Source of the DNA: a virus | Taxonomy: Duplodnaviria > Caudoviricetes | Length of the DNA: 64,000 nucleotides | IMG/VR virus record: IMGVR_UViG_3300033068_001747 | Reading direction: 5' to 3' (one strand) | Shown here: positions 7,903-63,586 of the stretch, piece by piece | Numbering within the stretch: the stretch's first letter is position 1 | Layout: the number at the start of each line of letters is the position of its first letter | The notes under the pieces: generated by a model | What the model was told of the DNA's origin: nothing | Seen by the model: only the letters and a program-made list of their open reading frames with translations | Database searches by the model: none | Translations under genes and position numbers: made by a program

Positions 7903-8457
7903 ATGAATTATATTAAACTATTTGAAGACTTTACTTTTTCCGATTTATACGATAAGAATAAATGGGTTGAACTTACTATGGAAGATAGAAGCAAACTTAA
8001 AAAAGAAATATGGGAGATTGTCGACCTAGCTTATAAGCCACTTGGTGGACACGTTAGAATCTCATCACCAGATGCAGTTGTAAATGATCCTGATTTAACT
8101 TTTTGGACGGCAGTTGATATAGATAAAGATCCTAATGTAGATGTTGTAATATTTTCTAGAGAATCACACGGACATAAAATATCTGGTTGGGGACATGATG
8201 GTACTAAAGAAGCCAGAAAAGAACTAATGAAACAACTGATTTCTTTACTACATAGAGAAGGTTTTTGGATAGAAGTGTCTGGAAGACCTGCAGAAATACT
8301 AATAGGTGCAGATTGCAGATACTGTGATAAACAAATTGTAAGTAAAGTTTTTCCACACTCTGAAATAAACTGGATTGGAAATGGTGTTTATACAAGAACT
8401 TTACCGGATGATACAATAACTGAAGAAGAATACTTAATTGGACGTCCAAGAGTATAA
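7903..8457 (+). CDS. Hypothetical protein with N-terminal MNYIKLFEDF tag (putative head cargo)
   Basis: Shared N-terminal motif; late motif 5 nt upstream. Confidence 0.7.
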   Translation: MNYIKLFEDFTFSDLYDKNKWVELTMEDRSKLKKEIWEIVDLAYKPLGGHVRISSPDAVVNDPDLTFWTAVDIDKDPNVDVVIFSRESHGHKISGWGHDGTKEARKELMKQLISLLHREGFWIEVSGRPAEILIGADCRYCDKQIVSKVFPHSEINWIGNGVYTRTLPDDTITEEEYLIGRPRV

Positions 8458-8481
8458 ACTTTTTTGATAATTTTTGATATA
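8456..8481 (+). promoter_or_regulatory. Putative middle promoter AAAC-N18-TATA
   Basis: One of 11 sites with the same spacing, mostly before replication/metabolism genes. Confidence 0.55.
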
Positions 8482-8504
8482 CTCATGAATAAATGAGATA
8501 AAAT

Positions 8505-9476
8505 ATGTCAGTAAATAAATTATTATTATGGGAAAAATGGCGTCCGAAAACTATTGACGACATTATATTACTTCCAAGAATTAGAAAAGAATTAGAAAAT
8601 GGTGTAAATCAACACTATATATTCCACGGTCACTACGGTAGTGGTAAAACAAGTTTAGCAAGAATTTTAATTGGTAGATACTCAAAAGAAACTCCTTACT
8701 TGGAATTAAACTGTTCTATGGACACATCTATTGATGTACTTAGAACTGAAATTGATAACTTCTGTAAGTTTACTCCAATGATGGACACTAATTCAGATAT
8801 TAAATATGTTTTTTTAGATGAGTTTGAAAGAGTTTCTACAAACTTTCAAGACGCATTTAAAGCTTTCATAGAAAGATATAATAGAAATGTTCGATTTATC
8901 ATTACAACAAACCATATAAACAAAATATCTGACGGATTAAAATCAAGAATTAAACAAATAGGGTTTGATTGTCAAAATGTTGAAGAAGAAAAGTTTTTAA
9001 AACAGGAAATCTATAAAAAGATAATCAATGAAATTCTTCCTAAAGAAGATGCAGAAATACCAAAAGAAGATTTAATCAACATTATTACTAAAAAGTTTCC
9101 AGACTTTCGTTCTACATTAGTTGAAGTACAAAGTTATTTAGATACTGGTGCGATAAGTGATGGAACAGGAAATGTTTCTACAAAAGTGAAGTTAGAACTT
9201 TATAATACTTTATATGAAGATTTAGATTTTGAAAAAACTTATCACTTTTTAATGTCAAACTTTGGTGCAGAAAAAATTGATGTAATGATTAAATTACTAG
9301 GAAAACCCTTTATTGATTGGTGTATCACAGAGAAAAGAGAAAGTGTCAATAAACTATTTGAAACAGCTTATATAATTGCAGATTACTCTTCTAAATTAGA
9401 AGGTTCAACTGATCCACTTATATTAGGAATAACAATTATAGGAAAATTTAGAGATATATTAAAAAACCCAGTCTAA
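8505..9476 (+). CDS. gp44: Clamp loader AAA+ subunit (T4 gp44 / RFC small subunit)
   Basis: WEKWRPKTIDD, Walker A GHYGSGKT, Walker B LDEFE, FIITTN, LKSR, FPDFR. Confidence 0.92.
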   Translation: MSVNKLLLWEKWRPKTIDDIILLPRIRKELENGVNQHYIFHGHYGSGKTSLARILIGRYSKETPYLELNCSMDTSIDVLRTEIDNFCKFTPMMDTNSDIKYVFLDEFERVSTNFQDAFKAFIERYNRNVRFIITTNHINKISDGLKSRIKQIGFDCQNVEEEKFLKQEIYKKIINEILPKEDAEIPKEDLINIITKKFPDFRSTLVEVQSYLDTGAISDGTGNVSTKVKLELYNTLYEDLDFEKTYHFLMSNFGAEKIDVMIKLLGKPFIDWCITEKRESVNKLFETAYIIADYSSKLEGSTDPLILGITIIGKFRDILKNPV

Positions 9477-9485
9477 CTGGGTTTT
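9463..9485 (+). terminator. Intrinsic terminator
   Basis: AAAACCCAGT/ACTGGGTTTT stem followed by T-run. Confidence 0.75.
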
Positions 9486-9504
9486 ATTTTTTTATATATA
9501 GTTT

Positions 9505-9882
9505 ATGGCAAATTTTAACTTTATCGACTTTTATATCTGTTATCCAGGACACCCAATGTTTAGAAATGCTGAACTTATCGAGGATGATGTAGTAAAAGTT
9601 ATCGTTCAAAAATATGAAATGATTATCTTTACAAATAAAGGTGAAGTTTTAGGAGAACCTAATTTTGGTGCAGACCTAACTTTACTACTACACGAAACAA
9701 GATTATCAGCAGAATCAGTTGAAGGTGATATAAGAGCTCAAATAGCAGATTATATACCTGAAATAGATCAAATTGGTTATGAATTATCAGTAGAGTTTTT
9801 TGATGATCCTGAGAGACATCAAGAATATATGGTAATCAACTTTACAATTGCAGACTATGAAGTTTATGCAACCGTTAGCTAA
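9505..9882 (+). CDS. Baseplate wedge protein, gp25-like
   Basis: IFTNKGEVLGEPNFGADL..LL.E gp25-family signature. Confidence 0.82.
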   Translation: MANFNFIDFYICYPGHPMFRNAELIEDDVVKVIVQKYEMIIFTNKGEVLGEPNFGADLTLLLHETRLSAESVEGDIRAQIADYIPEIDQIGYELSVEFFDDPERHQEYMVINFTIADYEVYATVS

Positions 9883-10324
9883 GTCTATAAGAATTGTGTT
9901 GCCAATAGTTTTCACCATATTCAACAAATATCTCTTCACCTGCTTCTATATCTCTTGTTGCAACAAGAACAACGTCATCACCATCCATTGAGATTATACA
10001 GTTGTTTTTAAATCCAGTATCAGAACCTTCTGCATCATTAGCGTATTTGGCAAAACAATCAGTTTGTTTACAATCTAATATGTCACCATTTGGTAAATTC
10101 ATAAAGTAATCATCATCTCCTGATTCAGTTCTAGATTTAATTTCTTCATCAGAAATAATTTCTCCTTTAAATACAGATATAACTTCATCTTTCTCAATAT
10201 CAATTGCTGTAAATAAACCTCTACCAGAATTAGGTATCTGTGAAGTTTCTACATATAAGTAGTCTGACTCGTCAGAGTCAATTCTATCAAAATCAAAATT
10301 TTCAAAAGTTTTTAAATATCTCAT
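9875..10324 (-). CDS. SET-domain protein-lysine methyltransferase with MRYLKTFENF tag
   Basis: SGRGLFT, AKYAND, VATRDIEAGEEIFVEYG..YW. Confidence 0.88.
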   Translation of the reverse strand: MRYLKTFENFDFDRIDSDESDYLYVETSQIPNSGRGLFTAIDIEKDEVISVFKGEIISDEEIKSRTESGDDDYFMNLPNGDILDCKQTDCFAKYANDAEGSDTGFKNNCIISMDGDDVVLVATRDIEAGEEIFVEYGENYWQHNSYRLS

Positions 10325-10334
10325 TATAATTATT

Positions 10335-10952
10335 TTATTTTATAGGACAGTGATTTGCAGAATAAATATATTTGAAATCTCTTTTTATTTTAACACCAAA
10401 TGATTTAGCAGCAGTTTCAACATCTAAAAAACATTCTGAGTCAGAACCACCAACCATTACAACTTCTTGTCCTTTTAATTTAGTAAAAAGTTCTTGTAAT
10501 TTTTTTGGTAAATGATACCATTGATGATTATTCCCAATATAAACTATAAATGTACCTTCTTTAGTATTAAAAGTATCACCTCTTTTTAATTGTTTATTAG
10601 TTTCTTTTTGTTTTAAATCAGTATAAACTTCTTTAGATAGAATATTTTTATAAAAATCAACATCTACATCATAGTTATATCGTTTCTCTATCAAATCTTT
10701 TTGATTAGGGAAACGATATAAATCTTTATGTACTGGAATATCTGGATTCTCATCATATAGATAATCTTTGTCTACATGTTTCCCGTCAACGTGATTATCC
10801 CAAATTTGGTAAACTGATTCAAAATTTTTACAATACTTATTTAATTCATGTAAATACATCTCCGTAAAAAATTTACGGAAACTCTTTTGAACATCAACTA
10901 TTATCAATGTTTGTTTATTTTGAAAGTTATCGTATATTTTTAAATGTTTCAT
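10335..10952 (-). CDS. Isochorismatase / cysteine-hydrolase-fold protein with MKHLKIYDNF tag
   Basis: LIIVDVQKSF, EKRY and VVMVGGSDSEC give a D-K-C triad pattern. Confidence 0.7.
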   Translation of the reverse strand: MKHLKIYDNFQNKQTLIIVDVQKSFRKFFTEMYLHELNKYCKNFESVYQIWDNHVDGKHVDKDYLYDENPDIPVHKDLYRFPNQKDLIEKRYNYDVDVDFYKNILSKEVYTDLKQKETNKQLKRGDTFNTKEGTFIVYIGNNHQWYHLPKKLQELFTKLKGQEVVMVGGSDSECFLDVETAAKSFGVKIKRDFKYIYSANHCPIK

Positions 10953-12742
10953 TAGTCTTCGTCTTCTATTGCTAGTTGTCCTTGTTTTCTTTTTATAACG
11001 TTTATCATAACTGTGATACCGTTATTTATATTTCCAAAGTAGTTTCTCTTATCACTAAATGCCGAATATAAATAAACAGTATTATTATAATAACTACCTG
11101 GTCTCATTCTATCAAAGAAGTTACTTAAACTACCTAAACCGGTTCTCTCTGATCTAAACATCTGTCTTATTGAATTGATCTCTTGTTGTAAGAATTCAAC
11201 ATCTGATAATGTTTCAACAGTAATGGATGCAATATAACGACTAATTTCCAAAGATAATCTATCTAAATTATCTAGTATCTTAATCTCTTTATTTCTCCAT
11301 TCTTCAGTAGATTCATCTTCAATTTTATCTTTAAATTGTTTAAGAAGTTTATTAGTATGTTCGTTTGTTTTTATAGACCAATCTAATATACTTTTATACT
11401 TTTCATTGATATACTCAACATCATTTTTGAAATCATAATTGTTTTTCAATGCTTCTAATGCAGTAGGAGTAAGTCCTTGTTCTAATAACTTAGCATCTTC
11501 TCTTTCTGCAGTTTTAATCTTCTTAATAACTTTAAAAATATTTGTAGCTATATTTCCTAAACCACTACTGATCGTATCACTAGCAGATTGATTTAAGAAA
11601 TAAGCCGCATTTCTACCTAATAATCTAGCAGCCATTCTATTAAATTTAGAAATATCATCTAATTCACCTTTTAATTTGAAACCTAGTGCAATCTTATCAA
11701 AGTATCTTTTAATATTAGCTTTCTTAATATCTTCATCAGACATAAGTGCTAGAGCACCTGATTTCAACTCAGTTCTATCAGAAATAATCTCACTTTTCTT
11801 TTTCGCTGGTGCAAAATTCATTAGTTTATTAAAATCTAATATAATTGCAAAATTTGCGTCTTTCACAGAAGAGTTTATCTGAACTGGCCTAATACGGAAA
11901 TTATCTAAGTCAAATGAAGTATTATATCCATAAGGGTCTAAACCACCAACATTTGCTTTTGGTTTTAATAAATTTATATTATTAACTCTCGAAGGTATAA
12001 GTGTCCAGGAATTAGTACCAATCGATCTCCAATCACTAGTCCAAGGAGAAGGATATCTTCCACGTCTATTTTGAATAACAAACATTTTTGTCTCATTATA
12101 TCTAGTTTCTTTAAAAACATAACCTACCACACCAGATTCAATTGTATATGTTTCACCATTCCATCTTCTTTCAAGCATATCAAATGAGATTATATCACCA
12201 GTATCTAACACATTTTTTATTTGTGTCTTAGGAACTCTTCTAACTACATCATAATCATCAACATTTGGTGAAAATGCAGTAGTATTAGCAGCAGATGTTT
12301 CTCTATAAACACCATCTACCGCAGTGGTTGCAATAAATTTACCTTCTGAATCAAACCAAAATTTAATCATTGATAAACTAGACTTTTTAGGTTTGATTCC
12401 AGTACCTTTACAAGTACCACAATCAACAACTCTAAATCCTCTACCCCAAGGTCTTCTTACCTTACCTTTATCACATTTTTCACCAGCTATAAACTCACCA
12501 GTTGCATCACAAGGCTCATCTTCAACGACAACATTATTAAATCTTAATGCTCTATTAAATGGTAAGTATGTAAATAAATCATCACTTAGTTTAGATTCAG
12601 GTACATCAAACTTATTACATATCTTTTTTAAAGAGTTTAAAAAGTTACTTTTATCAGATTTTGATTTTATGTGGTTTAAAGTTGCATTTAATGTTCTTGC
12701 ATCAAATGCTTCAAATAATTTTATATATTTTAAATTTTTCAT
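10952..12742 (-). CDS. Large protein with DnaJ-like Zn finger and MKNLKYIKLFEAF tag
   Basis: CDATG...CDKG...CGTCKGTG; shared N-terminal motif. Confidence 0.7.
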   Translation of the reverse strand: MKNLKYIKLFEAFDARTLNATLNHIKSKSDKSNFLNSLKKICNKFDVPESKLSDDLFTYLPFNRALRFNNVVVEDEPCDATGEFIAGEKCDKGKVRRPWGRGFRVVDCGTCKGTGIKPKKSSLSMIKFWFDSEGKFIATTAVDGVYRETSAANTTAFSPNVDDYDVVRRVPKTQIKNVLDTGDIISFDMLERRWNGETYTIESGVVGYVFKETRYNETKMFVIQNRRGRYPSPWTSDWRSIGTNSWTLIPSRVNNINLLKPKANVGGLDPYGYNTSFDLDNFRIRPVQINSSVKDANFAIILDFNKLMNFAPAKKKSEIISDRTELKSGALALMSDEDIKKANIKRYFDKIALGFKLKGELDDISKFNRMAARLLGRNAAYFLNQSASDTISSGLGNIATNIFKVIKKIKTAEREDAKLLEQGLTPTALEALKNNYDFKNDVEYINEKYKSILDWSIKTNEHTNKLLKQFKDKIEDESTEEWRNKEIKILDNLDRLSLEISRYIASITVETLSDVEFLQQEINSIRQMFRSERTGLGSLSNFFDRMRPGSYYNNTVYLYSAFSDKRNYFGNINNGITVMINVIKRKQGQLAIEDED

Positions 12743-14442
12743 ATTACTGGTCCTACTATTTCTATTTTTACTCCTTTAGATCTTAATTCACCTAAGATTG
12801 ATTTAGATTCTTTTGTTGCTAAATCACCAGAGATTACTAATTTTTTCAAGTTCTCAGGTACAATTGTTTTTAAATCTTCTACAGAATCTAAAGTATATAT
12901 TACTTGAAGTTCTTCTAATGCTTTAAAATCAGAGAAGTCAAATGAACCAACATTATCACAACTAACAATTTGTAATTTTGTAATACCTGGGTTAGAAGCA
13001 TTTATATCTTGTAAAACGGTATTAGACAATCTACATTTATCAAATGCAATATTTGTTGTTTTGATTCTATCAAAATCCTTTAAAGTATGAATTTCAATAA
13101 ACTTAAATTTAATCCAATCTAAAGTAAGATTGATTGTCAATAATGATTCTGGAATCTCAGTTGTTTCAATTATCAACTCTTTAATTTTCGCATTTGGATC
13201 TACTCTAACATTTGTCCAGTTTCCAATTTGACTTAAATATAAAGTTTTTATATTTTTACCAATCATTCTTCCTGTAGTTAAAGATAATCTATCTTGATAT
13301 GGTGCATCTAAACTATCATTAAAGTCAATATCAGGAGTATATAAATATCTGTCATTTCTATCCGCATTAGAAGCATTACCACTATATTTAGTAACCATTT
13401 CTTGAATCTTATTCTGCATTCTATCTGGATAAGCTCTATCAAAATATAATTTTTTAGGTCCTGTTCCATCAAATGTCTCAATATTTCTAATAATCATTCT
13501 CGATAAAGGTAAATGTTCAGAAATCTTCTCATCTTCCCAGAAGATAGGAGTTTCAAAAATTAAGAAAGCAGGTATACTATTTGGATCAAATACATTACCT
13601 AAAACTTTACCACTATAACCACCACTATATAAATGTTGACATGAAGAGTAAAACTTAGAAATTGACATATTTAAAATATCTTGTGGATTGTGAGTAATCT
13701 TCAAGAAAATATCTTTATTGAAAATCTCAAAGTCTAATTTATATTGTGGATTCTCATTAGTAGATGCAAAGTTTATAAAATTTGATAAATTTCTATTATC
13801 AGAGAATAGTGTTGATGATGCAATTTTATCTGATTCAGACCAACCTTCTAAATTAGCGTCAGTACATTTATCAACTAAATCATTATAATCCGAAATAAAT
13901 GTGTTTATATTAATTAAGTTGTTACTAAATATCAAATCTCCAGCTTTCTTCTCTGTTCTAATCATATTACCTTGTTCATCTCTGATAGGTCTATTATTAG
14001 CATCCTTAGAAATAACTGAAGTTGCCATAGTATCCGGAATAGATAATTTTCTAAAAACTGAACTAAACATAGCCAATATTTGATCTAACTTAGGTTTTCT
14101 AATATCAAAACTTTCAAAAATTCTAGTATAAGTATCTTTATTCTCTCTAAAAAGTTCAACATTTATTGATTGATTTAAAACATTTCCAAATTGTTCTGGT
14201 AAACTAGAGAACAACTCAAATAACTCAACCATATTAGTTTGACAAAAAACACCAAGTACCTCATTCTTATCTTCTTCAGATAACTTCCAACTTCCTTGTA
14301 CAATTTTATCAGTTGGGGTAACCTCTTCATAGTCAAGGTATTTCTCGCCCCATTTACTTGTTACTGCCTTTGCTTGTCTAGGTAAGATAACATCACGTAG
14401 CTTTGCTTCTAAAAAAAGATTTCTTGTTTTAATCCATTTCAT
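12739..14442 (-). CDS. Large protein with LRR-like C-terminus and MKWIKTRNLFLEA tag
   Basis: Repeated (I/L)xxLxI/L segments (IKTLYL, IKELII, ITKLQI, LEELQV, LKKLVI). Confidence 0.65.
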   Translation of the reverse strand: MKWIKTRNLFLEAKLRDVILPRQAKAVTSKWGEKYLDYEEVTPTDKIVQGSWKLSEEDKNEVLGVFCQTNMVELFELFSSLPEQFGNVLNQSINVELFRENKDTYTRIFESFDIRKPKLDQILAMFSSVFRKLSIPDTMATSVISKDANNRPIRDEQGNMIRTEKKAGDLIFSNNLININTFISDYNDLVDKCTDANLEGWSESDKIASSTLFSDNRNLSNFINFASTNENPQYKLDFEIFNKDIFLKITHNPQDILNMSISKFYSSCQHLYSGGYSGKVLGNVFDPNSIPAFLIFETPIFWEDEKISEHLPLSRMIIRNIETFDGTGPKKLYFDRAYPDRMQNKIQEMVTKYSGNASNADRNDRYLYTPDIDFNDSLDAPYQDRLSLTTGRMIGKNIKTLYLSQIGNWTNVRVDPNAKIKELIIETTEIPESLLTINLTLDWIKFKFIEIHTLKDFDRIKTTNIAFDKCRLSNTVLQDINASNPGITKLQIVSCDNVGSFDFSDFKALEELQVIYTLDSVEDLKTIVPENLKKLVISGDLATKESKSILGELRSKGVKIEIVGPVI

Positions 14443-18156: not shown

Positions 18157-19158
18157 ATGAAATGGATTAAAACTTTTGAAGAACTAACACCACGTATTTA
18201 TAGAGATGCAGGGAGCAGACTTATGAACATACCTCATAAAAAAGCGAAAGGTAGAATATTAAAAGATTATGGCTCCGAAAAAGAATGGGGTGTTTATAAC
18301 ATAGAACTTGTAAAAGACTATGAAGATATAAGTAGAAAAGTTAAATTTACAAAACCTACTGCAAAATTTGTTCTAAATATGAAAATGCAAGATGGTCCAA
18401 ATACTATGAACACAAGATATGAAGATATATCAATAGAAGATATGCTTGATCTTTGGGGTACTGCAGATAGAGATTTATACTTCACAATACAATTTTATTT
18501 TGAACCATTAGAGGAATCAAAAGATACATACTTACCAACTTGGGGAGGTTTGCCACTATTCTCATTTAGAGTAGATTTATCAAATTGGAATGATGGATTA
18601 GAAAATTGGAATAATCCAGAGGATTGGGATGAGGATTATGATGAACCACCAAAACAATATACATTACAAGAACTTTATGATGAATGTAGTGATTTATCTA
18701 TAAATCTGGAACTTCCTCAAAATAATCCAAGAGGTGTATACCTGGGTCAAGGTGTAAATCGTGCTGTATATCATTATGGTATATTCTCAGATAGAAATAG
18801 TGCATTTAAGTTTAAGAAATTACTTCCAACTTTAATAAATGCAGAAATTGAAGCAAAAATATGGGAAGTATTCTCATTATTAGGAGATTCTAAAAACTTT
18901 CAAAGATGTATTCATGCATTAAAATATGGAGTAAGAGTAAACCATTTATATGATGATGTAAAAGCATTATCAAGTAGGTCAGATGCTAGAGACCCAAGTA
19001 GAATATGGTTTCGTAATAATATCGCAGATATTCCTAGAGAAGTATCTAAAAAGGAAGAGGTTAAAGAAGAACCAAAAGTACCACAAGAAGAACCAAAAGA
19101 GGTACAATCGAATAAAGAAGAAAACCCAAAATCAATGTGGTATCAATCAAGAACATAA
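18157..19158 (+). CDS. Hypothetical protein with MKWIKTFEEL tag
   Basis: Shared N-terminal motif; late motif 5 nt upstream. Confidence 0.7.
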   Translation: MKWIKTFEELTPRIYRDAGSRLMNIPHKKAKGRILKDYGSEKEWGVYNIELVKDYEDISRKVKFTKPTAKFVLNMKMQDGPNTMNTRYEDISIEDMLDLWGTADRDLYFTIQFYFEPLEESKDTYLPTWGGLPLFSFRVDLSNWNDGLENWNNPEDWDEDYDEPPKQYTLQELYDECSDLSINLELPQNNPRGVYLGQGVNRAVYHYGIFSDRNSAFKFKKLLPTLINAEIEAKIWEVFSLLGDSKNFQRCIHALKYGVRVNHLYDDVKALSSRSDARDPSRIWFRNNIADIPREVSKKEEVKEEPKVPQEEPKEVQSNKEENPKSMWYQSRT

Positions 19159-25079: not shown

Positions 25080-25364
25080 TTATTGTTTCTCTTGTAAAAA
25101 AACAATCATTTTTTCTAGGTTTTCCTTATTAAATCCATTTAATGGACCACCACCCGACTTTAAATAATCTTGATACAATTGATTATATTCATCCATTGTA
25201 TAAAAGTTACCATCTAAATCACTATAAAGTACTGAAGTATCATCAGAACCGATTGTATTATTACCCAATTCTGTAGTACCAAACCCAGAACCCATTTCTT
25301 TACCTACTAATTCAGTACCACTTACTTCATTTATAAAGTCATAAAACTTTTTAATCATTACCAT
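25080..25364 (-). CDS. Small protein with MIKKFYDFINE tag
   Basis: Shared N-terminal motif followed by INE. Confidence 0.65.
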   Translation of the reverse strand: MVMIKKFYDFINEVSGTELVGKEMGSGFGTTELGNNTIGSDDTSVLYSDLDGNFYTMDEYNQLYQDYLKSGGGPLNGFNKENLEKMIVFLQEKQ

Positions 25365-40897: not shown

Positions 40898-40915
40898 TAA
40901 CAACTATACAAAAAC

Positions 40916-42317: not shown

Positions 42318-42333
42318 TTATTTATTTAAGTGA

Positions 42334-47043: not shown

Positions 47044-49679
47044 TATTGTTTTTTAATTTGGATTCCTGTTTTAGATCTTACCTGTGTTTTTGCAGGTTTA
47101 TTACCTGCTTGTAAAATAACAGCATCTAATTTTGGTTCAGTAGTATTATCAATAGTATAAACTTTTTTATCTTTACTATAAACTAACCAATAAATGTCAG
47201 AAATGTCTTTAAATATAGGTTCAGTTACTTTACCATCATTATCAACAGAAGAAACTTTTATTGTATTATTTAACTTGAAAATATCATTAAACTCATTTAC
47301 TTTAATCATAGTATATTTAGGAGGTAAAGTACCATCTATAGCCAATCCCATTTCAAATGTACCCTTAGCTATATCTTTTTGAGTACCATTCATCTTATTC
47401 AAGTATTTATTTCTATAATAAGGAATTAAAGTATATGACATATAGATTTCACCATTTGAAACCTCATGAATTAAAAATGTTCTTTGTCTTCTCTTACCTT
47501 CCTCATTTGTATAAGCAATTGTAAAAAATGTATTAGGTTTTAAATCAACTCCTTTAATAGGAGGAGCAACTTTACCTAATTCTAACTCTAATTTCTGTTT
47601 AGAACTCTCTAATGTTGCAGCATCTGCTAAATCTTTCTCATCTAATACTGCCATTGCAGTTTGATTATTAGTTCCTGCACCATCACCGAAATATGAATCA
47701 ACAAAGCCAGCAACTTTACCTCTCTCATTACCAGATTTATACAGTTTCTCACCATCTAATATATCATTTATAAATTTATTAAATTGAAGACCTGCGTTAG
47801 GTCTGATTTCCCAATCTCCAGGATTAGAATAATCAGGATTAGTTACCTTTGGTAATCTTAGATTAGCATTCTTAGTAAACAATACCTGATATTTACGATT
47901 CTTTCTTATATCATTAACTGCTTCTTCCCAAGCATCAAACAATTTATTATTTCTATAAGGACCATTTCTACCACTATCACCATCAGAACCACCACCAAAT
48001 GAAGTATATTCAGATAATGTATTTGTATCAACCTTCTCACTTCTTTTAGTAATTGTTTGAACAGTATATAACTTATAAGCTTTTATGAAAAGATTCATTA
48101 TTTCAATGATAGGGTCTAAACTCATAGTTATACCCTCAGGATTTTCCTTTTTCTTAGCTTCTAATTCATCTCTTAACTTAGTAGTTTCCTCTTCTGAGAT
48201 AGTAAATGCTCTAACCTCTTTACAATTTTCATTAAAGAAGTCTAATATTTTCTTAGTAGAATCGGTACTATCACCTTGTACTTCTTGCTCATCATTTGTA
48301 GTTTGATTCTCAACTGGCTTCTCATCAGGTTTACCGGAAGGTAAAATATTTTGTGCTTCTAAAAACGTAAAATAAGAAAGTACCGACTCTTTTTTAACAG
48401 TAACAATAGGCACTTTATTTATCTCTTTTAAAGTAGATACAAATGTTTGTAAAGGAACTTTTAAATCTCCTAAACCACCATATAAGTTCTCTTTTTCAAA
48501 TTGAGATGCTCTTTTAGAAAATCTCGCAATTTTCTCAGCAATAATAACTACTTTATTTCTATCTGATAAAACCTCAATACCTTCATTATAAAGTCTATCC
48601 TTTTCTTGTATTGTTGCCTTTTTATCACCAACCAAATATCTATTTATCTCATTATAAAGATTTTTTATAAGTTCTTTATTTTTACTATCGTTAGAATTTG
48701 TTGCAATATCATTAATTAAATTATAATCAACTGAAATACCTTTTTCCTTAGGTGAAATTAATACTTCAATATCTTTTCTCAATTTATTAAAAGCTTGTGT
48801 TAAGTGATCTTCACCAACAACTGTTTTACCTCTATCTGCAGCACCACCAGTACCAAATGAGTCAGCACCTTCCATAAGAAGAACCATTCCTGAAGGAAGT
48901 GATTGATCATTATTGGTAAATTTAGCTAACTTAGTATTTTTGGTTCTTATTGTGTCAATATCTAATCGATTAGGGTTTTTAGTATTATCACTTTGAATTA
49001 AACTTAATTTATCACCATTCACGGTAGTATATGTTTTCTTTGTTTTACCGTTAGCACCTGTTGATGAACCAGTACTAACTTTCTTATAATTTGCTAATAC
49101 CAAAGCAAGTGCTTTTAGATTTTTAACCATTAAACCATACGAATTAATGTTACCATCTGTACCTTTTTCTTCAGTAGTTTCTGTAGAATTTTGATCTTTA
49201 AATTGGTTTAAGAAATCTCTAAACTTTTTAAGTTCCTCTAGTAAAATCTCTTTTTTATCTAGATTTTTCACATCATTAACTGCTTTAATTGCACCATCTG
49301 TTAATCCTATCAACTCAGATACAGGATGACCATTTTCCACCGCAAATATCAACTCCTTAAAGAAAGAGGATAAAGTTATTCTAAGTAATAATAACTGTTG
49401 ATCACCATCTAGAGAGAATACAACAGATTGGTCTAAAAGATAATCAAATTGCTCTCTTAACCTTTCTGTCAATTTTTTAATTTGCCCAACTTTTCTAGCA
49501 ATTCTTGCTTTTCTAATGATATGATTGATTAGACGTCCTAATAAAGAGTCATTCCAACCAACATCATTTGCAAATGGACCACTATTAAATTCAGCTTCTT
49601 CGTTTATTGACTTGATTTTATTTATAGAGTTAGAGTTTTTCTCTCTAAGAAAATCCTCTCTTTTATTCAAATATCTCAT
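47043..49679 (-). CDS. Large protein with LysM-like module and MRYLNKREDFLRE tag
   Basis: YTTVNGDKLSLI...IRTKN...LPSGMVL at about 48875-49040. Confidence 0.65.
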   Translation of the reverse strand: MRYLNKREDFLREKNSNSINKIKSINEEAEFNSGPFANDVGWNDSLLGRLINHIIRKARIARKVGQIKKLTERLREQFDYLLDQSVVFSLDGDQQLLLLRITLSSFFKELIFAVENGHPVSELIGLTDGAIKAVNDVKNLDKKEILLEELKKFRDFLNQFKDQNSTETTEEKGTDGNINSYGLMVKNLKALALVLANYKKVSTGSSTGANGKTKKTYTTVNGDKLSLIQSDNTKNPNRLDIDTIRTKNTKLAKFTNNDQSLPSGMVLLMEGADSFGTGGAADRGKTVVGEDHLTQAFNKLRKDIEVLISPKEKGISVDYNLINDIATNSNDSKNKELIKNLYNEINRYLVGDKKATIQEKDRLYNEGIEVLSDRNKVVIIAEKIARFSKRASQFEKENLYGGLGDLKVPLQTFVSTLKEINKVPIVTVKKESVLSYFTFLEAQNILPSGKPDEKPVENQTTNDEQEVQGDSTDSTKKILDFFNENCKEVRAFTISEEETTKLRDELEAKKKENPEGITMSLDPIIEIMNLFIKAYKLYTVQTITKRSEKVDTNTLSEYTSFGGGSDGDSGRNGPYRNNKLFDAWEEAVNDIRKNRKYQVLFTKNANLRLPKVTNPDYSNPGDWEIRPNAGLQFNKFINDILDGEKLYKSGNERGKVAGFVDSYFGDGAGTNNQTAMAVLDEKDLADAATLESSKQKLELELGKVAPPIKGVDLKPNTFFTIAYTNEEGKRRQRTFLIHEVSNGEIYMSYTLIPYYRNKYLNKMNGTQKDIAKGTFEMGLAIDGTLPPKYTMIKVNEFNDIFKLNNTIKVSSVDNDGKVTEPIFKDISDIYWLVYSKDKKVYTIDNTTEPKLDAVILQAGNKPAKTQVRSKTGIQIKKQ

Positions 49680-50377: not shown

Positions 50378-50875
50378 ATGAAAAACTTAAAATTATATGA
50401 GAATTTTTCCGGTAAAATAAAATATACTAAACCCGAAGATCTTGATACACAAGAAGTTGTTGAGTTAGTTGGAATTTTATTTGAATTAAAACCTACTCTA
50501 CCAGATGAATTTCCTAACAAAGATTTATCACCTTTAATCAAAAATGAGGTATCTTATCTATCTGATGATGATAGATTTAATATCGTAGTTGGGTTCAGTG
50601 AAAATGATGTTTATGTAAACAAGGAAGGTGAACTGGTCTCTGGTAAATATAAAACAATATTTAAGGTAAATATCAGTAGAACCGAAAAAGAAAGTTTTAA
50701 ATTATCAGAAGTTAAAGAATACATTCTTTTAACATCACAATTAGTTGAAAAAACTTATGATAAAGTTAAAATGTTAGTTAAGATAAATGAAGAGAAGTTA
50801 TCGATGGAAGATTTTGAGAAATTATCAGATAATGATGAAATAGAAGAAATAACATTTCTTATAAAAATATACTAG
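50378..50875 (+). CDS. Hypothetical protein with MKNLKLYENF tag
   Basis: Shared N-terminal motif. Confidence 0.7.
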   Translation: MKNLKLYENFSGKIKYTKPEDLDTQEVVELVGILFELKPTLPDEFPNKDLSPLIKNEVSYLSDDDRFNIVVGFSENDVYVNKEGELVSGKYKTIFKVNISRTEKESFKLSEVKEYILLTSQLVEKTYDKVKMLVKINEEKLSMEDFEKLSDNDEIEEITFLIKIY

Positions 50876-50878
50876 TTT

Positions 50879-51457
50879 ATGAAGTATTTACAAACACATG
50901 AGGGGTTTATCAATAAAGTTAAAACATTTATTAAAGATAAACTTAAAGAACAAGAACCAAATACAGAAAATAATATAACTGGTTCTAATGAAAAAAAAGA
51001 TAAATTTAGAGAATTTGTAATGGATTGTATTACTTATCTACAAGATGATTTTAATATAGATATTAAATTTGTTGAAAATTCAGTTGAAAGAGGATATAAA
51101 GGTGAAACAATATTTGGTGAATTAAAAACCGAATCCAGAGTTAAAATACTAAAACAAGTTAGACAAGGTGACCAGAATAAAATAGAGGAAAATCAATTCA
51201 TTATTGATGATGTTAGAGATCAACTTTTATCTATGGTAGAACTGGCTTTAAGACATTATAATATATTAGATGTTTATTTTGTTTACAGAGGTGAATTAGA
51301 AACAATTGAAAATGATAACCCATTTACTGTAGCCACAGGTATTGCATTAGATATGCTTAAACCGGGAGAACCTCAAAAAGTAAATAAAAAAGATTTTGAA
51401 AAATTACCTTATGATACAATAACTTCCGAAGTAAATGTCATATTCAAACTATTATAA
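50879..51457 (+). CDS. Hypothetical protein with MKYLQTHEGF tag; possible paralog of the preceding gene
   Basis: Tag variant; similar F.I..V..../I.E(I/V)..I.K endings. Confidence 0.65.
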   Translation: MKYLQTHEGFINKVKTFIKDKLKEQEPNTENNITGSNEKKDKFREFVMDCITYLQDDFNIDIKFVENSVERGYKGETIFGELKTESRVKILKQVRQGDQNKIEENQFIIDDVRDQLLSMVELALRHYNILDVYFVYRGELETIENDNPFTVATGIALDMLKPGEPQKVNKKDFEKLPYDTITSEVNVIFKLL

Positions 51458-53275: not shown

Positions 53276-53863
53276 ATGAAAAATATTAAAACATTTGAAT
53301 CATTCTCCGAAGGAGAAGAAATAAACGAATCTTTAGGAGGAATAATAAAATCAGTAATAACATTTCCATTTACAGTAATTGCCCTACTAGGAATGCAATT
53401 TGTAAATGGTAGAACAATATCAAAAGTAATTAGAGAAAGACTTTTAGATATTTATGCAAATATTGATACACTAATAGCAACTTTAGAAAATATTCTAAGA
53501 AAAACTGATATTACTGATGTTGAAAAACGAAAAGTTCTTTCTAAATTAAAAGACTTAAAGAAAGTTAAAGAGAAATACCCAACTTTACAAAGTTACAAAC
53601 AAGAGGTAAGTAAAAAAGTAATTTTTTATAACTTTAAAAATAGAGATTATTTGAGAAATCAAATTTGGGAATATGAACCTAGACAAATGAGTGCAATGCA
53701 AGTAGCAGCAGAACTAACAAAAGTTTATAAACTTATAGAAAGAGGTGATGTAACTGGAGAGGTTGCTGCACGTGAACCTATTAGAAATAGATTTCAAGAA
53801 CGTTTAAATGGTCTGATAGGGGGAAATGCACCCGAAGAACAAAATCCAGACGGACAAAGATAA
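53276..53863 (+). CDS. Protein with MKNIKTFESF tag and a hydrophobic segment
   Basis: Tag, INES, then a hydrophobic helix. Confidence 0.7.
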   Translation: MKNIKTFESFSEGEEINESLGGIIKSVITFPFTVIALLGMQFVNGRTISKVIRERLLDIYANIDTLIATLENILRKTDITDVEKRKVLSKLKDLKKVKEKYPTLQSYKQEVSKKVIFYNFKNRDYLRNQIWEYEPRQMSAMQVAAELTKVYKLIERGDVTGEVAAREPIRNRFQERLNGLIGGNAPEEQNPDGQR

Positions 53864-58816: not shown

Positions 58817-59347
58817 ATGAAACACGTTAAAGCATTTGAAAGATTTCGTATTCAAAAAAATAGAGAAGAGATTATTAAAGAGTCTGTTTTCCAAGTTAAC
58901 GATCTTTATAAAGTAAAAACTATGATTGATTTACCTCAGTCTTTAATCAACGCTTATGTTAAAAAAGTAAAAGATACTACAGGTAAAAATTTACGTCAAT
59001 TCTTTGGAGACGTGGATATTGCAGAAGAAATCATTAAATATGTAACTACAACATTTTTAGATGTAGATAAAATCCCTGGTGGTGCAATAATGGGTGGACA
59101 AACTCAAGCACAAACTCAAGGTCAAGGACAAGTTCAAGTTCAAACTGAACCTCAAGGACAACCTCAGGCACAAACTGAACCTCAGGCACAAGCTCAAGTA
59201 CCTGCACAAGGTGAAGTTCAACCACAAGGACAACCAGAAGGAGAATTTGAAGAGCCACAAGCACAAACTCCAGTTCAAGGTCAAGCACAAGCTCCTGCAC
59301 AAGGTGAAGAGGGAGAAAATGAAGAAGAAGAGGAATTACCACTTTAA
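58817..59347 (+). CDS. Protein with MKHVKAFERF tag and Gln/Pro-rich disordered tail
   Basis: Shared N-terminal motif; QTEPQ repeats; acidic end. Confidence 0.75.
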   Translation: MKHVKAFERFRIQKNREEIIKESVFQVNDLYKVKTMIDLPQSLINAYVKKVKDTTGKNLRQFFGDVDIAEEIIKYVTTTFLDVDKIPGGAIMGGQTQAQTQGQGQVQVQTEPQGQPQAQTEPQAQAQVPAQGEVQPQGQPEGEFEEPQAQTPVQGQAQAPAQGEEGENEEEEELPL

Positions 59348-61478: not shown

Positions 61479-61499
61479 CTTTATTATATAATTTTTTTA

Positions 61500-61529
61500 C
61501 AAATATAGTGAAAAAAACCAAATGTTCAA
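61500..61529 (-). promoter_or_regulatory. Bacteroidota-type promoter TTG-N19-TATATTTG
   Basis: CAAATATA at 61500-61507 and CAA at 61527-61529 on the + strand. Confidence 0.65.
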
Positions 61530-62873
61530 CTATTTAAACTTCTTTTTTAATTCACTTAAATCTAATAGATACATATCCTTTGGATCAGTATCTTCTAATA
61601 TTTTAATTTCTTCTTTTTTAGCAGTGAAGTCTTGCTTCATTTTTTCAAATAATTCTTTTGTTAAAGAATAAATTGGCATTCTTAATAAATAATCAAATGA
61701 GTCATCTATTTTTTCTAACCCTAAATTTTCAATACCAACAACAATTTCTGTTTTAGATACATTATTTATCTTTAACTTCTCATCAAGAATCGCTTTAATA
61801 AATCTACCTCTATTACTTAGTATCTTTAAGTCTTTATTAAGTTTATCTAATGTATGTTGCTTTCTCACATTGTAATAAGCTAGTCTAAACTTAGTAAAAT
61901 ATTCAATAATCTCTTCGGATGTTTCAAATATCTTCAATTTACCATACTCATCAAGTGTTGTAAATATCTCAGTTGATGATTCTTCTAGTTTTAAAAGCTT
62001 TATTAAAGCAGTATCATCTAAACTTTCTAACGAAGCTCTATTAAACTTTATTGTATAGTCAACATTATCTTTACAATTATCATCATAAGAAACAATATCC
62101 TTATTATCAACTAGTTTATCCAATATTTCTTCATACTTTTCATATGTCATAGAAGGTGGTAATTCACTTATCTTAACAGTTGAAGTATTTACTTTTTGAA
62201 ATCTACCTCTTATAATCCATCTTTTAGGATTTTCTTTATCTTGTATGAATTCACCTGTAAACTCATTTAGAGAAGGTTTAATACTAGATAATTTTTTTCC
62301 CTCAATAACTCTCACACAACTATCAATAATGCTTTTAATGTCTCTATTTAACACATTAGAAGCAAATCCAACCGCAATTCCTGAGGAACCATTTAATAAT
62401 ACCGTTGGAATAATTGGTAAAAAGTATTTTGGTTCTATTGATTCACCTTCTTCTTCCTTATAATCAAGTAAGTCAAAATCTTTGTAAATCAATCTAAAGT
62501 TCTCACTTAATTTTGTCCCAATATATCTTGCCGCACCAGGTTGTGGAGAACGCAATGAACCAAATTGTCCGTCTTCTTCTAAAAGTGGTGCATTATTCTT
62601 AAATTTTTGTGCCATTGTAACAATAGCATTTTCTAATGAAGTATTACCGTGATGATAAAAAGCATCAGATGCAACTTTACCCGCTAACTGGAATACTTTT
62701 ATATTTTTCTCAGTACCATTTCTCCAAATTTGATTAGAGATATGAATGATTTTTCTCTGTGTTGGTTTGAATCCATCAACAACAGATGGTATTGCTCTTC
62801 CTTCAATTGAGTACATTGCGAACTCTTTATACTCATTTGATAAGAAATCGGAAATCGTTTTTTCTGTCATCAT
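61530..62873 (-). CDS. gp52: Type II DNA topoisomerase, breakage-reunion subunit (T4 gp52 / GyrA-like)
   Basis: RAIPSVVDGFKPTQRK, YHHG, GQFGS, AARYI (catalytic Tyr), LLNGSSGIAVG; start moved to MMTEK. Confidence 0.93.
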   Translation of the reverse strand: MMTEKTISDFLSNEYKEFAMYSIEGRAIPSVVDGFKPTQRKIIHISNQIWRNGTEKNIKVFQLAGKVASDAFYHHGNTSLENAIVTMAQKFKNNAPLLEEDGQFGSLRSPQPGAARYIGTKLSENFRLIYKDFDLLDYKEEEGESIEPKYFLPIIPTVLLNGSSGIAVGFASNVLNRDIKSIIDSCVRVIEGKKLSSIKPSLNEFTGEFIQDKENPKRWIIRGRFQKVNTSTVKISELPPSMTYEKYEEILDKLVDNKDIVSYDDNCKDNVDYTIKFNRASLESLDDTALIKLLKLEESSTEIFTTLDEYGKLKIFETSEEIIEYFTKFRLAYYNVRKQHTLDKLNKDLKILSNRGRFIKAILDEKLKINNVSKTEIVVGIENLGLEKIDDSFDYLLRMPIYSLTKELFEKMKQDFTAKKEEIKILEDTDPKDMYLLDLSELKKKFK

Positions 62874-62914
62874 AATTTTATATATAGTAAAAAATAATCT
62901 TTGTTTTTTCCACA

Positions 62915-63586
62915 ATGAATAAACTTAAAAAATATAATGACTTTCTAATCTTAGAAAAATATGATAAAAACATCACAAACTATCTAAAAAGTATTGGTGT
63001 AACAGATAAAGAAGAACTTAAAAAACAAGTTTCTTTATCTAAACAAGGTCACTTAGGTACTTACCTACACTCTAAAGGTGATAAATTTACTTTTGGTATA
63101 CTTAAAGCTATCTTTAAAGATGCAATAGATGCAAAAAAGAAAACCGCATTAAAGAAAAATATCTTTAATTTATTACCTGTTGCAATTCCTTTATCGTTAG
63201 CACCATATTTCCCTATTTTAGCACTTGTTGGTACAGTATTTGGTTCATCTAGATTTGTACATAAGATATTTGATACAATATTTGATTATTTAGAACCACA
63301 ATCTAAATATGTAGATTTCCTAAAGAAAACTATCGATACTTATATGATGTTACCAGAAGGTAATGTCCCTTTAAAAGATAGATTCTCTAGAGCATTTGTA
63401 GTATCAGATAGATTGATTGAAGCACTTAAACCTGAAGTAGTAAATTCATTTACAACTTTTATAAGTGAGAAGATGGATAAAGAGGATGATGATAAACTAG
63501 TACCCGATCACTATATTGAAAACGAACTAAAGATGTATCTTAATGATAACTTTGATATAGATCCGGAAATACCTTTAAAGAAATAG
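62915..63586 (+). CDS. Protein with MNKLKKYNDFLILE tag and a hydrophobic hairpin
   Basis: Tag variant; central hydrophobic segment. Confidence 0.65.
   Translation: MNKLKKYNDFLILEKYDKNITNYLKSIGVTDKEELKKQVSLSKQGHLGTYLHSKGDKFTFGILKAIFKDAIDAKKKTALKKNIFNLLPVAIPLSLAPYFPILALVGTVFGSSRFVHKIFDTIFDYLEPQSKYVDFLKKTIDTYMMLPEGNVPLKDRFSRAFVVSDRLIEALKPEVVNSFTTFISEKMDKEDDDKLVPDHYIENELKMYLNDNFDIDPEIPLKK

What the first reader, a model, noticed from the sequence alone, without database searches (positions are those of the whole stretch)
7903..63586. About 17 unrelated proteins share an N-terminal MK(Y/H)LKxFExF peptide: candidate capsid-targeting signal for a large injected cargo set
Seen: MNYIKLFEDF (7903), MRYLKTFENF (10324), MKHLKIYDNF (10952), MKNLKYIKLFEAF (12742), MKWIKTRNLFLEA (14442), MKWIKTFEEL (18157), MIKKFYDFINE (25358), MKYLKLFERF (36754), MKYLKLFENF (37354), MKYIKLFEEH (37934), MKHLKNYKLFLEA (47043), MRYLNKREDFLRE (49679), MKNLKLYENF (50378), MKYLQTHEGF (50879), MKNIKTFESF (53276), MKHVKAFERF (58817), MNKLKKYNDFLILE (62915). 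The downstream domains are unrelated. The genes lie behind the late motif or in its operons, and core replication and structural genes lack the tag. Many have (I/L/F)xE sites just after it. Established: T4 internal proteins are packaged via a 10-aa N-terminal CTS (MKTYQEFIAE) removed by gp21 after Glu. Inference: a greatly expanded, portable packaging tag that loads many enzymes and effectors into the head for delivery at infection, in effect a phage protein-secretion signal.
Basis: partly seen in the sequence, partly recalled or inferred. Interest (0 to 1): 0.92.

Follow-up and report, generated by a model that had tools for sequence, protein, structure and literature searches.

The report
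Shared start peptide on megaphage late proteins
About one in ten proteins of this huge T4-related phage of Bacteroidetes, and of its relatives, begins with the same ten-residue peptide; it most likely acts like phage T4's capsid-targeting signal and loads many unrelated late proteins into the head, but packaging itself has not been shown.

Summary
All 17 listed N-termini are present. The window is the first 64 kb of a 132-kb fragment of a 'Mahaphage'-type huge phage; its portal is 84% identical to that of the 634,780-bp genome LR745206.

The consensus M-[KR]-[YH]-[LI]-[KR]-x-[FY]-[EN]-[ESN]-[FSY] starts 21 of 182 ORFs here and 88 of 942 in LR745206. It occurs about 1,000 times less often per position inside proteins. 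It is absent from an equally AT-rich T4-like Tenacibaculum phage and almost absent from 185,579 bacterial genomes.

The tag is selected at protein level. It sits on unrelated proteins, is disordered in a model, and is missing from the Flavobacterium homologues of the tagged SET enzyme. It is tied to an oriented TAATATATA promoter-like element that the virion genes share.

Relatives carry a T4-type major capsid protein and a protease-scaffold fusion with 9-13 Y-[LI]-A-E repeats. A second tag class (MIKKYxxFIxE) resembles the T4 signal MKTYQEFIAE.

Encapsidation, cleavage and injection remain inferred (confidence 0.5). A second, mutually exclusive C-terminal tag on about 12% of the non-late proteins keeps other sorting models open. 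Another first-stage note on the same genome had also seen both tags.

The parts
7903..8457 (+). Tagged gene, 184 aa, MNYIKLFEDF; TTAATATATA at 7888-7897, ending 5 nt before the ATG
   Evidence: homologue in LR745206 is also tagged (MKHLKAFEEY)
9875..10324 (-). Tagged SET-domain methyltransferase, 149 aa, MRYLKTFENF
   Evidence: Pfam SET 2.6e-14. Phage orthologues are tagged; Flavobacterium chromosomal homologues are untagged. In the AlphaFold2 model the tag has pLDDT 44 and the domain 84-95
10335..10952 (-). Tagged gene, 205 aa, MKHLKIYDNF, inside an operon
   Evidence: orthologue in LR745206 starts MKYIRTYESY; no Pfam family
10952..12742 (-). Tagged gene, 596 aa, MKNLKYIKLFEAF (tag with a 3-residue insertion)
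   Evidence: orthologue starts MKDLKHIKLFEA
12739..14442 (-). First gene of a four-gene tagged operon, 567 aa, MKWIKTRNLFLEA; late motif 36 nt upstream
18157..19158 (+). Tagged gene, 333 aa, MKWIKTFEEL; late motif at -13
25080..25358 (-). Small protein with the T4-CTS-like class-2 tag MIKKFYDFINE, conserved beside a conserved 441-aa late protein
36754..37347 (+). Tagged gene, 197 aa, MKYLKLFERF; late motif at -31; first of three tagged genes in a row
37354..37932 (+). Tagged gene, 192 aa, MKYLKLFENF
   Evidence: phrog_7595, unknown function
37934..38320 (+). Tagged gene, 128 aa, MKYIKLFEEH
46513..47043 (-). Tagged gene, 176 aa, MKHLKNYKLFLEA, directly upstream of the sheath gene; its position is conserved
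   Evidence: orthologue starts MKYLKKYKIFLE
47043..49679 (-). Weakly tagged gene, 878 aa, MRYLNKREDFLRE
   Evidence: matrix score 7.2; no family or solved relative
50378..50875 (+). Tagged gene, 165 aa, MKNLKLYENF
   Evidence: paralogue of the next gene
50879..51457 (+). Tagged gene, 192 aa, MKYLQTHEGF
53276..53863 (+). Tagged gene, 195 aa, MKNIKTFESF, followed by a hydrophobic segment; late motif at -12
58817..59347 (+). Tagged gene, 176 aa, MKHVKAFERF; late motif at -33
   Evidence: orthologue starts MKHIRTYENY
62915..63586 (+). Tagged gene, 223 aa, MNKLKKYNDFLILE (long form)
5124..5498 (-). gp55-like late sigma factor, the likely reader of the TAATATATA element
   Evidence: phrog_234, 7e-8; BLASTP 9e-9 to a PTm1 ORF that I did not look up in that record's annotation
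7888..7897 (+). Example of the late promoter-like element TTAATATATA
   Evidence: 31 of 46 copies in the contig lie 9-50 nt upstream of a start in sense orientation, against 10 in antisense. The element also precedes the portal, sheath, tube and other virion genes

Best explanation
The peptide M-[KR]-[YH]-[LI]-[KR]-x-[FY]-[EN]-[ESN]-[FSY], together with its relatives MKYLKKYK[IL]FE and MIKKYxxFIxE, is a portable N-terminal sorting peptide of a clade of T4-related huge phages.

The most likely mechanism is that of the T4 capsid-targeting sequence:
1. The genes are transcribed late from a gp55-type TAATATATA promoter.
2. The flexible, partly hydrophobic N-terminal peptide docks the protein onto the protease-scaffold core while the prohead assembles.
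3. The gp21-like protease removes the peptide after the Glu at position 8-12.
4. The protein stays in the head and enters the next cell with the DNA.

Shown here: the tag exists, it is clade-wide, it is selected at protein level, it is modular, it lies outside the folded domain, it is linked to the late promoter element, and the relatives have T4-type head machinery.

Inferred: binding to the core, cleavage, encapsidation and ejection.
For: 1. Enrichment and specificity.
2. Synonymous codon usage inside the tags equals genome-wide usage, and tags inside operons are as good as promoter-proximal ones. Selection therefore acts on the peptide, not on the DNA or RNA.
3. The protein bodies are unrelated. 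No column is conserved after position 10. Residues 11-40 are richer in acidic residues, 21.7% against 13.8%.
4. Modularity. All phage SET orthologues are tagged. Flavobacterium chromosomal homologues at about 60% identity start where the tag ends. The tag is unstructured in the AlphaFold2 model. The ClpB-like protein is tagged here but not in LR745206.
5. Late class. The oriented TAATATATA element precedes the portal, sheath, tube and other virion genes and is enriched at tagged genes: odds ratio 6.3 (p = 3e-4) here, 3.5 (p = 1e-7) in LR745206. A gp55-like sigma is present.
6. T4-type head machinery in close relatives. The portal matches phrog_213 and 2,365 mostly T4-like records. The capsid protein matches Pfam Gp23 at 1.8e-26. 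The protease-scaffold fusion matches the PTm1 protease at 1e-20 and carries 9-13 tandem NIAYSEY[LI]AENLDK repeats in 78 relatives, each a T4-type (L/I)xE site.
7. T4 head-internal proteins read from the T4 record all begin with a 6-10-residue peptide ending in hydrophobic-x-E: MKTYQEFIAE in ipII and ipIII, MLKEQLIAE in gp22, MELITELFDE in Alt, MIDKDYIAE in Inh, MAKINELLRE in gp24. The class-2 tags (MIKKFYDFINE, MLKKYIDFITE; 18 in LR745206 where 2.5 are expected) match this closely. In orthologues of the gene next to the capsid gene the tag classes replace one another.
8. In 91 of 109 tags the first Glu is at position 8 or 9, with a hydrophobic P3 residue in about 70% and a small or polar P1' residue.
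9. The few tagged proteins with a known family are of the counter-defence or take-over kind (NUDIX, RNA ligase 1, 2H/Acb1-like, RNase T-like, DHH, SET, ClpB-like), yet they sit behind late promoters. This is the pattern of T4 Alt and IPI.
10. Established knowledge: the T4 CTS is the only conserved part of otherwise diverse internal proteins and directs them into the scaffolding core (PMC3012670, PMC5694885).
Against: There are no virion proteomics for any member of this uncultured clade.

The number of tagged proteins (about 9-11% of all ORFs) is far beyond any known set of packaged proteins.

In the commonest form (K-x-F-E-x-F) the P3 residue is variable (T in 18 of 109), and only 39% of tags hold the strict [IL]xE site.

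The protease domain reaches only E = 0.005 against Pfam Peptidase_S77. Neither the protease nor the capsid gene lies on this contig, which ends just short of them.

A 682-aa ClpB-like ATPase and an 878-aa protein are tagged.

Two tagged genes sit directly upstream of the sheath gene and could be neck or tail proteins.

A second, C-terminal tag on 12% of the proteins shows a broader use of terminal peptides.

Tagged genes are not clearly more variable than the others: 10 of 23 against 84 of 159 have a homologue in LR745206.
Confidence: 0.5

Rival explanations
1. The tag is a docking or regulatory peptide for a shared partner other than the prohead core. Candidates are a phage chaperone or AAA+ unfoldase, a Clp-type protease used for timed turnover or activation, a sliding clamp, or an assembly site or compartment in the infected cell. 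Together with the C-terminal tag on non-late proteins it would form a two-signal sorting or turnover code.
For: A second terminal peptide, R-[DEN]-x-K-[IL]-x-x-[IL]-[LG], ends 17 of 182 ORFs here and 114 of 942 in LR745206, where 0.7 are expected. It never occurs together with the N-tag. It is depleted behind the late motif: 3-6% against 24-31% for untagged genes. The phage encodes a ClpS adaptor (Pfam 5e-20) and a ClpB/ClpA-like ATPase. The large number of tagged proteins and the cytoplasmic-type enzymes among them fit a cytoplasmic role as well as a capsid role. From memory only: F-[DE]-x-F-[DT]-F in some tags resembles the C-terminal clamp-binding peptide of T4-type polymerases.
Against: No partner has been identified. 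The N-terminal Met-Lys is not a ClpS N-degron. The restriction of the tag to late genes, its resemblance to the N-termini of T4 head-core proteins, and its presence on genes beside the capsid gene point to the head. Mutual exclusion of the two tags follows simply from late against non-late gene classes.
Confidence: 0.28
2. The conserved start reflects translation initiation. Many of these mRNAs would be leaderless or nearly so, and Bacteroidetes lack Shine-Dalgarno pairing, so an A/U-rich, unstructured set of first codons (AUG AAA UAU UUA AAA ...) is selected for efficient expression of late proteins.
For: In the commonest arrangement the promoter-like element ends 4-5 nt before the ATG (offsets -12 and -13). 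That would place the transcript start at or next to the AUG. All preferred tag codons are A/U-rich.
Against: Codon choice inside the tags matches genome-wide synonymous usage; Tyr even shows more TAC than the genome average. Across relatives every synonymous variant is seen, so it is the peptide that is conserved. Tagged genes inside operons, which have no promoter of their own, carry equally good tags. About half of the genes with the -12 arrangement have no tag. PTm1, which is equally AT-rich and infects a flavobacterium, has none. The pattern is almost absent from 185,579 bacterial genomes. A periodic pattern of aromatic, acidic and basic residues is not explained by base composition.
Confidence: 0.07
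3. The shared start is a by-product of gene-cassette shuffling or of hidden paralogy. A promoter plus first-codons module would be copied by recombination in front of new genes and have no function of its own.
For: The promoter element and the tag often travel together. Tagged genes occur in runs (9875-14442, 36754-38320, 50378-51457). Arrays of up to ten are seen in LR745206.
Against: The tags differ widely at DNA level but are conserved as peptide. The tag has been maintained across lineages whose portals are only 35-52% identical, and a derived variant (MIK[KTS]FKLFE) exists in the 735-kb phage. In SET orthologues from 98% down to about 62% identity the tag is kept. Sequence similarity stops at residue 10.
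Confidence: 0.03

Closest known systems
Capsid-targeting sequence (CTS) of phage T4 internal proteins IPI-III, and the short N-terminal propeptides of Alt, gp24, gp22, gp67, gp68 and Inh
   Same: An N-terminal peptide of about 10 residues, the only conserved part of otherwise unrelated proteins. It ends in hydrophobic-x-Glu. The genes are late. The phage has a gp20/gp21/gp22/gp23-type head pathway. The class-2 tags (Y-x-[DEQ]-F-I-x-E) nearly reproduce MKTYQEFIAE (PMC3012670; PMC5694885).
   Different: About 100 tagged genes per genome instead of a handful. The dominant consensus MK[YH]LKx[FY]E is a different sequence, and many copies lack L or I at P3. The scaffold is fused to the protease and built of 14-residue repeats. 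Packaging and cleavage are untested.
Long N-terminal propeptides of head and ejection proteins of phiKZ-like giant phages (SPN3US, 201phi2-1, phiKZ)
   Same: Many internal head proteins (dozens) are processed by a T4-related prohead protease after Glu. The propeptides are thought to target proteins into the prohead (PMC5694885, PMC7411985).
   Different: Those propeptides are 80-160 residues long and are not a shared decapeptide. Their cleavage motif is (A/S/G)-x-E. They were demonstrated by mass spectrometry.
Cargo-loading peptides of encapsulins
   Same: A short terminal peptide on unrelated cargo enzymes binds the inner face of an HK97-fold shell.
   Different: They are usually C-terminal, are not cleaved, belong to bacterial nanocompartments and involve one or a few cargo types. 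This comparison rests on my own knowledge and was not tested here.
Dar anti-restriction proteins of phage P1
   Same: Several unrelated anti-defence proteins are packaged into the head and injected (PMC9024508, PMC12810830).
   Different: Their incorporation is hierarchical and depends on DarA and Hdf. No common decapeptide is known.

Membership tests
T4-type capsid-targeting sequence / prohead-protease propeptide | Short peptide (about 10-20 aa) at the extreme N-terminus | tested here: met
   The conserved block is residues 1-10, or 1-13 in the long forms; there is no conservation after it
T4-type capsid-targeting sequence / prohead-protease propeptide | Shared by proteins that are otherwise unrelated; transferable | tested here: met
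   100 unlinked groups among 118 proteins. The tag is an add-on in the phage SET enzyme and is absent from the cellular homologues. It is gained or lost in the ClpB-like orthologues
T4-type capsid-targeting sequence / prohead-protease propeptide | Ends in the gp21 cleavage motif (L/I)-x-E followed by a small residue | tested here: inconclusive
   The first Glu is at position 8 or 9 in 91 of 109 tags. P3 is F, L, I, Y or V in about 70% but T in 18. Strict [IL]xE occurs in 39% against 24% of untagged proteins. P1' is mostly S, N, E, D, G or A. Class-2 tags meet the motif fully
T4-type capsid-targeting sequence / prohead-protease propeptide | The phage encodes a gp21-type prohead protease, a scaffolding core and a gp23-type capsid protein | tested here: met
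   Met in the close relative LR745206 and in 78 IMG/VR relatives. These genes are not on this contig, which ends just before them. The Pfam S77 match is weak (E = 0.005)
T4-type capsid-targeting sequence / prohead-protease propeptide | Late expression together with the head genes | tested here: met
   Judged by promoter class only. The oriented TAATATATA element is shared with the virion genes and enriched at tagged genes. No time-resolved RNA data exist
T4-type capsid-targeting sequence / prohead-protease propeptide | Tagged proteins are present inside the head and N-terminally processed | not testable with these tools
   The clade is uncultured and no particle proteome was found
T4-type capsid-targeting sequence / prohead-protease propeptide | The tag is sufficient to encapsidate a foreign protein | not testable with these tools
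   This needs an experiment
gp55-dependent late promoter (T4: TATAAATA) | Single A/T-rich -10-like element, oriented, upstream of virion genes, with a gp55 homologue present | tested here: met
   67-72% of TAATATATA copies lie 9-50 nt upstream of starts in sense orientation, against 22% in antisense. The element precedes the portal, sheath, tube and other virion genes. phrog_234 late sigma, 7e-8. Transcript starts were not mapped

The most novel reading that the evidence does not exclude
Huge T4-related phages of Bacteroidetes mark about a fifth of their proteome with one of two mutually exclusive terminal peptides. The N-terminal tag loads roughly a hundred different late-made proteins into the head as a ready-made take-over and counter-defence kit that is injected with the DNA. 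The C-terminal tag marks a separate fate for early proteins. Together they would form a simple, readable viral protein-sorting code, and the N-tag could serve as a portable packaging signal.
Probability: 0.35. Interest if true: 0.88.

Novelty: new variant of a known kind. Interest (0 to 1): 0.74.

Why it matters
If the tag is a capsid-targeting signal, the internal (injected) proteome of an uncultured clade of the largest known phages can be read directly from sequence. It would be several times larger than in any studied phage. That would change how the first minutes of a megaphage infection are pictured, with dozens of enzymes arriving together with the DNA.

It would also give a list of about 100 candidate counter-defence or take-over proteins per genome, most of them without any known family, and a short portable peptide for loading foreign proteins into large capsids.

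Even if the target is not the capsid, a decapeptide shared by a tenth of a viral proteome, paired with a second tag on another eighth, is a sorting system that can be tested directly.

Tried and rejected
1. Complex prediction of a 45-residue tag alignment against the protease-scaffold alignment gave no answer (score 0.00, controls not run). It counts neither for nor against binding.

2. I tested whether the tags mimic one scaffold repeat. A matrix built from the NIAYSEY[LI]AEN repeats put 7 of its top 40 hits in LR745206 at N-termini, but it put 5 of 40 there in the untagged control PTm1. This is not evidence.

3. Pfam Peptidase_S77 and Gp23 searches of the window's own contig found nothing. 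The reason is that the contig ends before these genes.

4. The 441-aa late protein (23712-25037), which the first stage suspected to be capsid-like, shows no sequence similarity to the capsid protein of LR745206 or to any solved structure.

5. Searches against solved structures with the 878-, 596- and 567-aa tagged proteins gave nothing usable.

6. Public RNA runs: one metatranscriptome holds exact contigs of the sheath gene. Contigs cannot give transcript starts or timing, and cover over the tagged genes was patchy, so this is uninformative.

7. Tagged genes are not clearly more variable than the others: 10 of 23 against 84 of 159 have a homologue in LR745206.

8. The tag-like KIIKTFESF at the end of gene 52418-53272 is not a recombination scar, because it is conserved in the orthologue.

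9. Literature searches for Mahaphage, for capsid targeting in huge phages and for the T4 CTS sequence found no report of this motif. The library does not cover all journals.

Full report
**What the window is**

The window is the first 64 kb of a 132,473-bp IMG/VR viral contig with 28.6% G+C.
- Its portal (1302-3080, minus strand) is of the T4 gp20 type (phrog_213, 1.4e-62). It is 84% identical to the portal of LR745206.1, a 634,780-bp 'uncultured phage' of the huge-phage set, and 32% identical to Lak phage portals.
- The window also holds a gp55-like late sigma (5124-5498), a gp4-like head-closure protein, a tail sheath (42334-46452), a tail tube, a T4-type large terminase, a gp44-like clamp loader, a topoisomerase subunit and a ClpS adaptor.
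- Gene order is collinear with LR745206. There the protease-scaffold gene (198546-200669) and the gp23-type capsid gene (200752-202434; Pfam Gp23, 1.8e-26) lie just beyond the point where our contig starts.
- The object is therefore a fragment of a T4-related megaphage. CheckV's 60% completeness is probably an overestimate.
- Its host is probably a flavobacterium. The tagged SET gene is about 60% identical to chromosomal Flavobacterium genes.

**The observation**

All 17 listed N-termini are there. With a crude gene call (longest ORFs of at least 50 aa), a weight matrix of positions 2-10 finds 19-21 tagged ORFs among the 182 of the contig, against 10 hits in 38,970 internal positions. Because the matrix was trained on these same sequences, the fair test is the sister genome. 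I fetched LR745206 whole. It has 88 tagged ORFs of 942, against 24 hits in 161,374 internal positions.

The strict DNA pattern for M-K-[YH]-x-K-x-[FY] gives these counts:

| Record | Matches | Reversed-pattern control |
|---|---|---|
| LR756502 (642 kb) | 57 | 1 |
| LR756504 (636 kb) | 33 | 2 |
| LR756500 (462 kb) | 13 | 0 |
| LR756501 (735 kb) | 0 | 1 |
| Lak-A1 | 0 | 0 |

- The 735-kb phage has a derived form instead, MIK[KTS]FKLFE, on roughly 25 of 546 ORFs.
- Tenacibaculum phage PTm1 is T4-like, has 29.7% G+C and infects a flavobacterium. It has no tag.
- The motif is therefore real, specific to viruses and specific to this clade.

**Nature of the conserved element**

The consensus from 109 tags is M1, K/R2, Y/H3, L/I4, K/R5, x6, F/Y7, E/N8, E/S/N9, F/S/Y10. 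An acid-rich stretch follows it.
- Selection acts on the peptide. Synonymous codon frequencies for K, Y, L, F, E, H, N and I inside the tags equal the genome-wide ones. The relatives show every synonymous variant.
- Nothing is conserved after residue 10. With the first 14 residues removed, 118 tagged proteins form 100 BLASTP-unlinked groups.
- The tag is an add-on. Phage SET methyltransferases from 98% down to about 62% identity all start M[KR]YLKxFE.F. Homologues in Flavobacterium chromosomes, flanked by ordinary cellular genes, start exactly where the tag ends.
- In an AlphaFold2 model the SET domain is confident (pLDDT 84-95), and residues 1-10 are unstructured (pLDDT 44).
- The ClpB-like ATPase is tagged in this contig but not in LR745206.

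**Link to late expression**

TAATATATA is an oriented element.
- In this contig 31 of 46 copies lie 9-50 nt upstream of a start in sense orientation, against 10 in antisense. In LR745206 the figures are 137 of 191 against 42.
- It precedes the portal, sheath, tube and several other conserved large genes. It also precedes the first gene of almost every tagged gene or operon.
- Tagged genes carry it far more often than untagged ones: 15 of 21 against 46 of 161 (p = 3e-4) here, and 43 of 88 against 184 of 854 (p = 1e-7) in LR745206.
- Two spacings occur. One ends 4-5 nt before the ATG, which would give nearly leaderless mRNAs. The other lies 25-39 nt upstream.
- With a gp55 homologue present, I read this as the counterpart of the T4 late promoter. 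That reading is an inference.
- The host-type element TAnnTTTG is not enriched at tagged genes.

**Comparison with T4**

I read the following from the T4 record itself:
- ipII and ipIII begin MKTYQEFIAE.
- The other head-core proteins begin MLKEQLIAE (gp22), MEGLIE (gp67), MLLIPE (gp68), MNEPQLLIE (gp21), MAKINELLRE (gp24), MELITELFDE (Alt) and MIDKDYIAE (Inh).

The literature states that these short propeptides target proteins to the scaffolding core and are removed by gp21. It also states that the CTS is the only conserved part of the diverse internal proteins (PMC3012670, PMC5694885).

In the present clade:
- The protease is fused to a scaffold that contains 9-13 tandem repeats NIAYSEY[LI]AENLDK in 78 relatives. 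Each repeat holds an invariant Glu in a (L/I)-x-E context.
- The capsid protein has a conserved S-I-N-E-N in its N-terminal region.
- A second tag class, M-I-K-K-Y-x-x-F-I-x-E, is found 4 times here and 18 times in LR745206, where 0.3 and 2.5 are expected. It is nearly the T4 CTS.
- Intermediate forms (MKYLKKYKIFLE) connect it with the main class.
- Orthologues of the gene next to the capsid gene carry one class or the other.

This is the main positive argument for the capsid-targeting reading.

**What the tagged proteins are**

Of 133 tagged proteins, fewer than 15 match a Pfam family: NUDIX (2), DUF6576 (2), a ClpB-like AAA+ ATPase, RNA ligase 1, SET, a 2H/Acb1-like phosphoesterase, an RNase T-type exonuclease, DHH and a winged helix.
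- Functions of this kind are useful at the very start of an infection, yet these genes sit behind late promoters. T4 Alt and the internal proteins show the same pattern.
- Some tagged proteins have a hydrophobic segment after the tag (53276, 62915), as ejection proteins of other phages do.
- A rough estimate of my own: about 100 proteins at tens of copies each would amount to 5-20% of the DNA mass, which is similar to T4.

**Weak points**

- No particle proteome exists for this clade.
- Strict [IL]xE occurs in only 39% of tags.
- The Pfam match of the protease is weak.
- The set of tagged proteins is unprecedented in size.
- Two tagged genes next to the sheath gene might be neck or tail parts.
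- The complex prediction gave no answer.

Following a lead from another first-stage note, I also confirmed a second tag. This is a C-terminal R-[DEN]-x-K-[IL]-x-x-[IL]-[LG] on 17 of 182 ORFs here and 114 of 942 in LR745206, where 0.7 are expected. It never occurs together with the N-tag, it is almost absent behind the late motif, and it is absent from PTm1 and from the 735-kb phage. It strengthens the link between the N-tag and late genes. It also shows that this phage uses terminal peptides as general handles, so a target other than the capsid remains possible.

**Verdict**

I give 0.5 to a T4-like capsid-targeting propeptide, 0.28 to another shared partner or a two-signal sorting or turnover system, 0.07 to a translation-initiation effect and 0.03 to a shuffling by-product.
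- It is a new variant of a known kind. I found no report of it in the searchable literature.

Noticed in passing
whole contig, e.g. window 14853-15362 (+); L052-L055; LR745206: A second terminal tag, C-terminal R-[DEN]-x-K-[IL]-x-x-[IL]-[LG] (for example RDKKINDLLK), ends 17 of 182 ORFs here and 114 of 942 in LR745206, where 0.15 and 0.74 are expected. It never occurs with the N-tag. The late motif is present upstream in only 3-6% of these genes. Median protein length is 110-121 aa. It is absent from PTm1 and from the 735-kb phage. Its function is unknown; a degron or docking helix for early proteins is possible.
   Followed up: partly
window 52418-53272 (+): This untagged, conserved 284-aa protein carries a tag-like KIIKTFESF 8-16 residues from its C-terminus. 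The LR745206 orthologue has HLKKTFESF at the same place.
   Followed up: partly
window 56963-57247 (-): A phage-encoded ClpS adaptor (Pfam 5e-20), conserved in LR745206 (77% identity). A ClpB/ClpA-like ATPase without an N-domain lies at contig position 100747-102795 and carries the N-tag.
   Followed up: partly
window and contig, many gene starts: Both promoter-like elements (TAATATATA and the host-type TAnnTTTG) often end 4-5 nt before the ATG (offset -12 or -13). This suggests many leaderless mRNAs.
   Followed up: partly
L001:25393-27516 (LR745206) and L056-L135: The prohead protease is fused to a scaffold with 9-13 tandem 14-residue repeats NIAYSEY[LI]AENLDK followed by an acidic tract. 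This is conserved in 78 IMG/VR relatives and in the 735-kb phage.
   Followed up: yes
LR756501 (L137-L156): The 735-kb phage holds extra short ORFs similar to parts of the protease, the capsid protein and the portal, besides the full genes. This echoes a first-stage note about dispersed fragments of head genes.
   Followed up: no
window 1-798 and contig start: The contig starts inside a nuclease gene that lies between the portal and the protease-scaffold gene in LR745206. There the head module is interrupted by nuclease and HNH-like genes. The contig therefore lacks the protease and capsid genes only because it is cut.
   Followed up: yes
window 5622-6905 (-): A conserved 427-aa late protein (82% identical in LR745206) starts MKNLKLELFNF. 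This is tag-like but scores below the cut-off. It has no family.
   Followed up: no
window 36500-46400: Near-identical DNA occurs in wastewater, freshwater, groundwater, biogas and bioleaching metagenomes of about 17 studies. One freshwater metatranscriptome has exact contigs of the sheath gene.
   Followed up: partly
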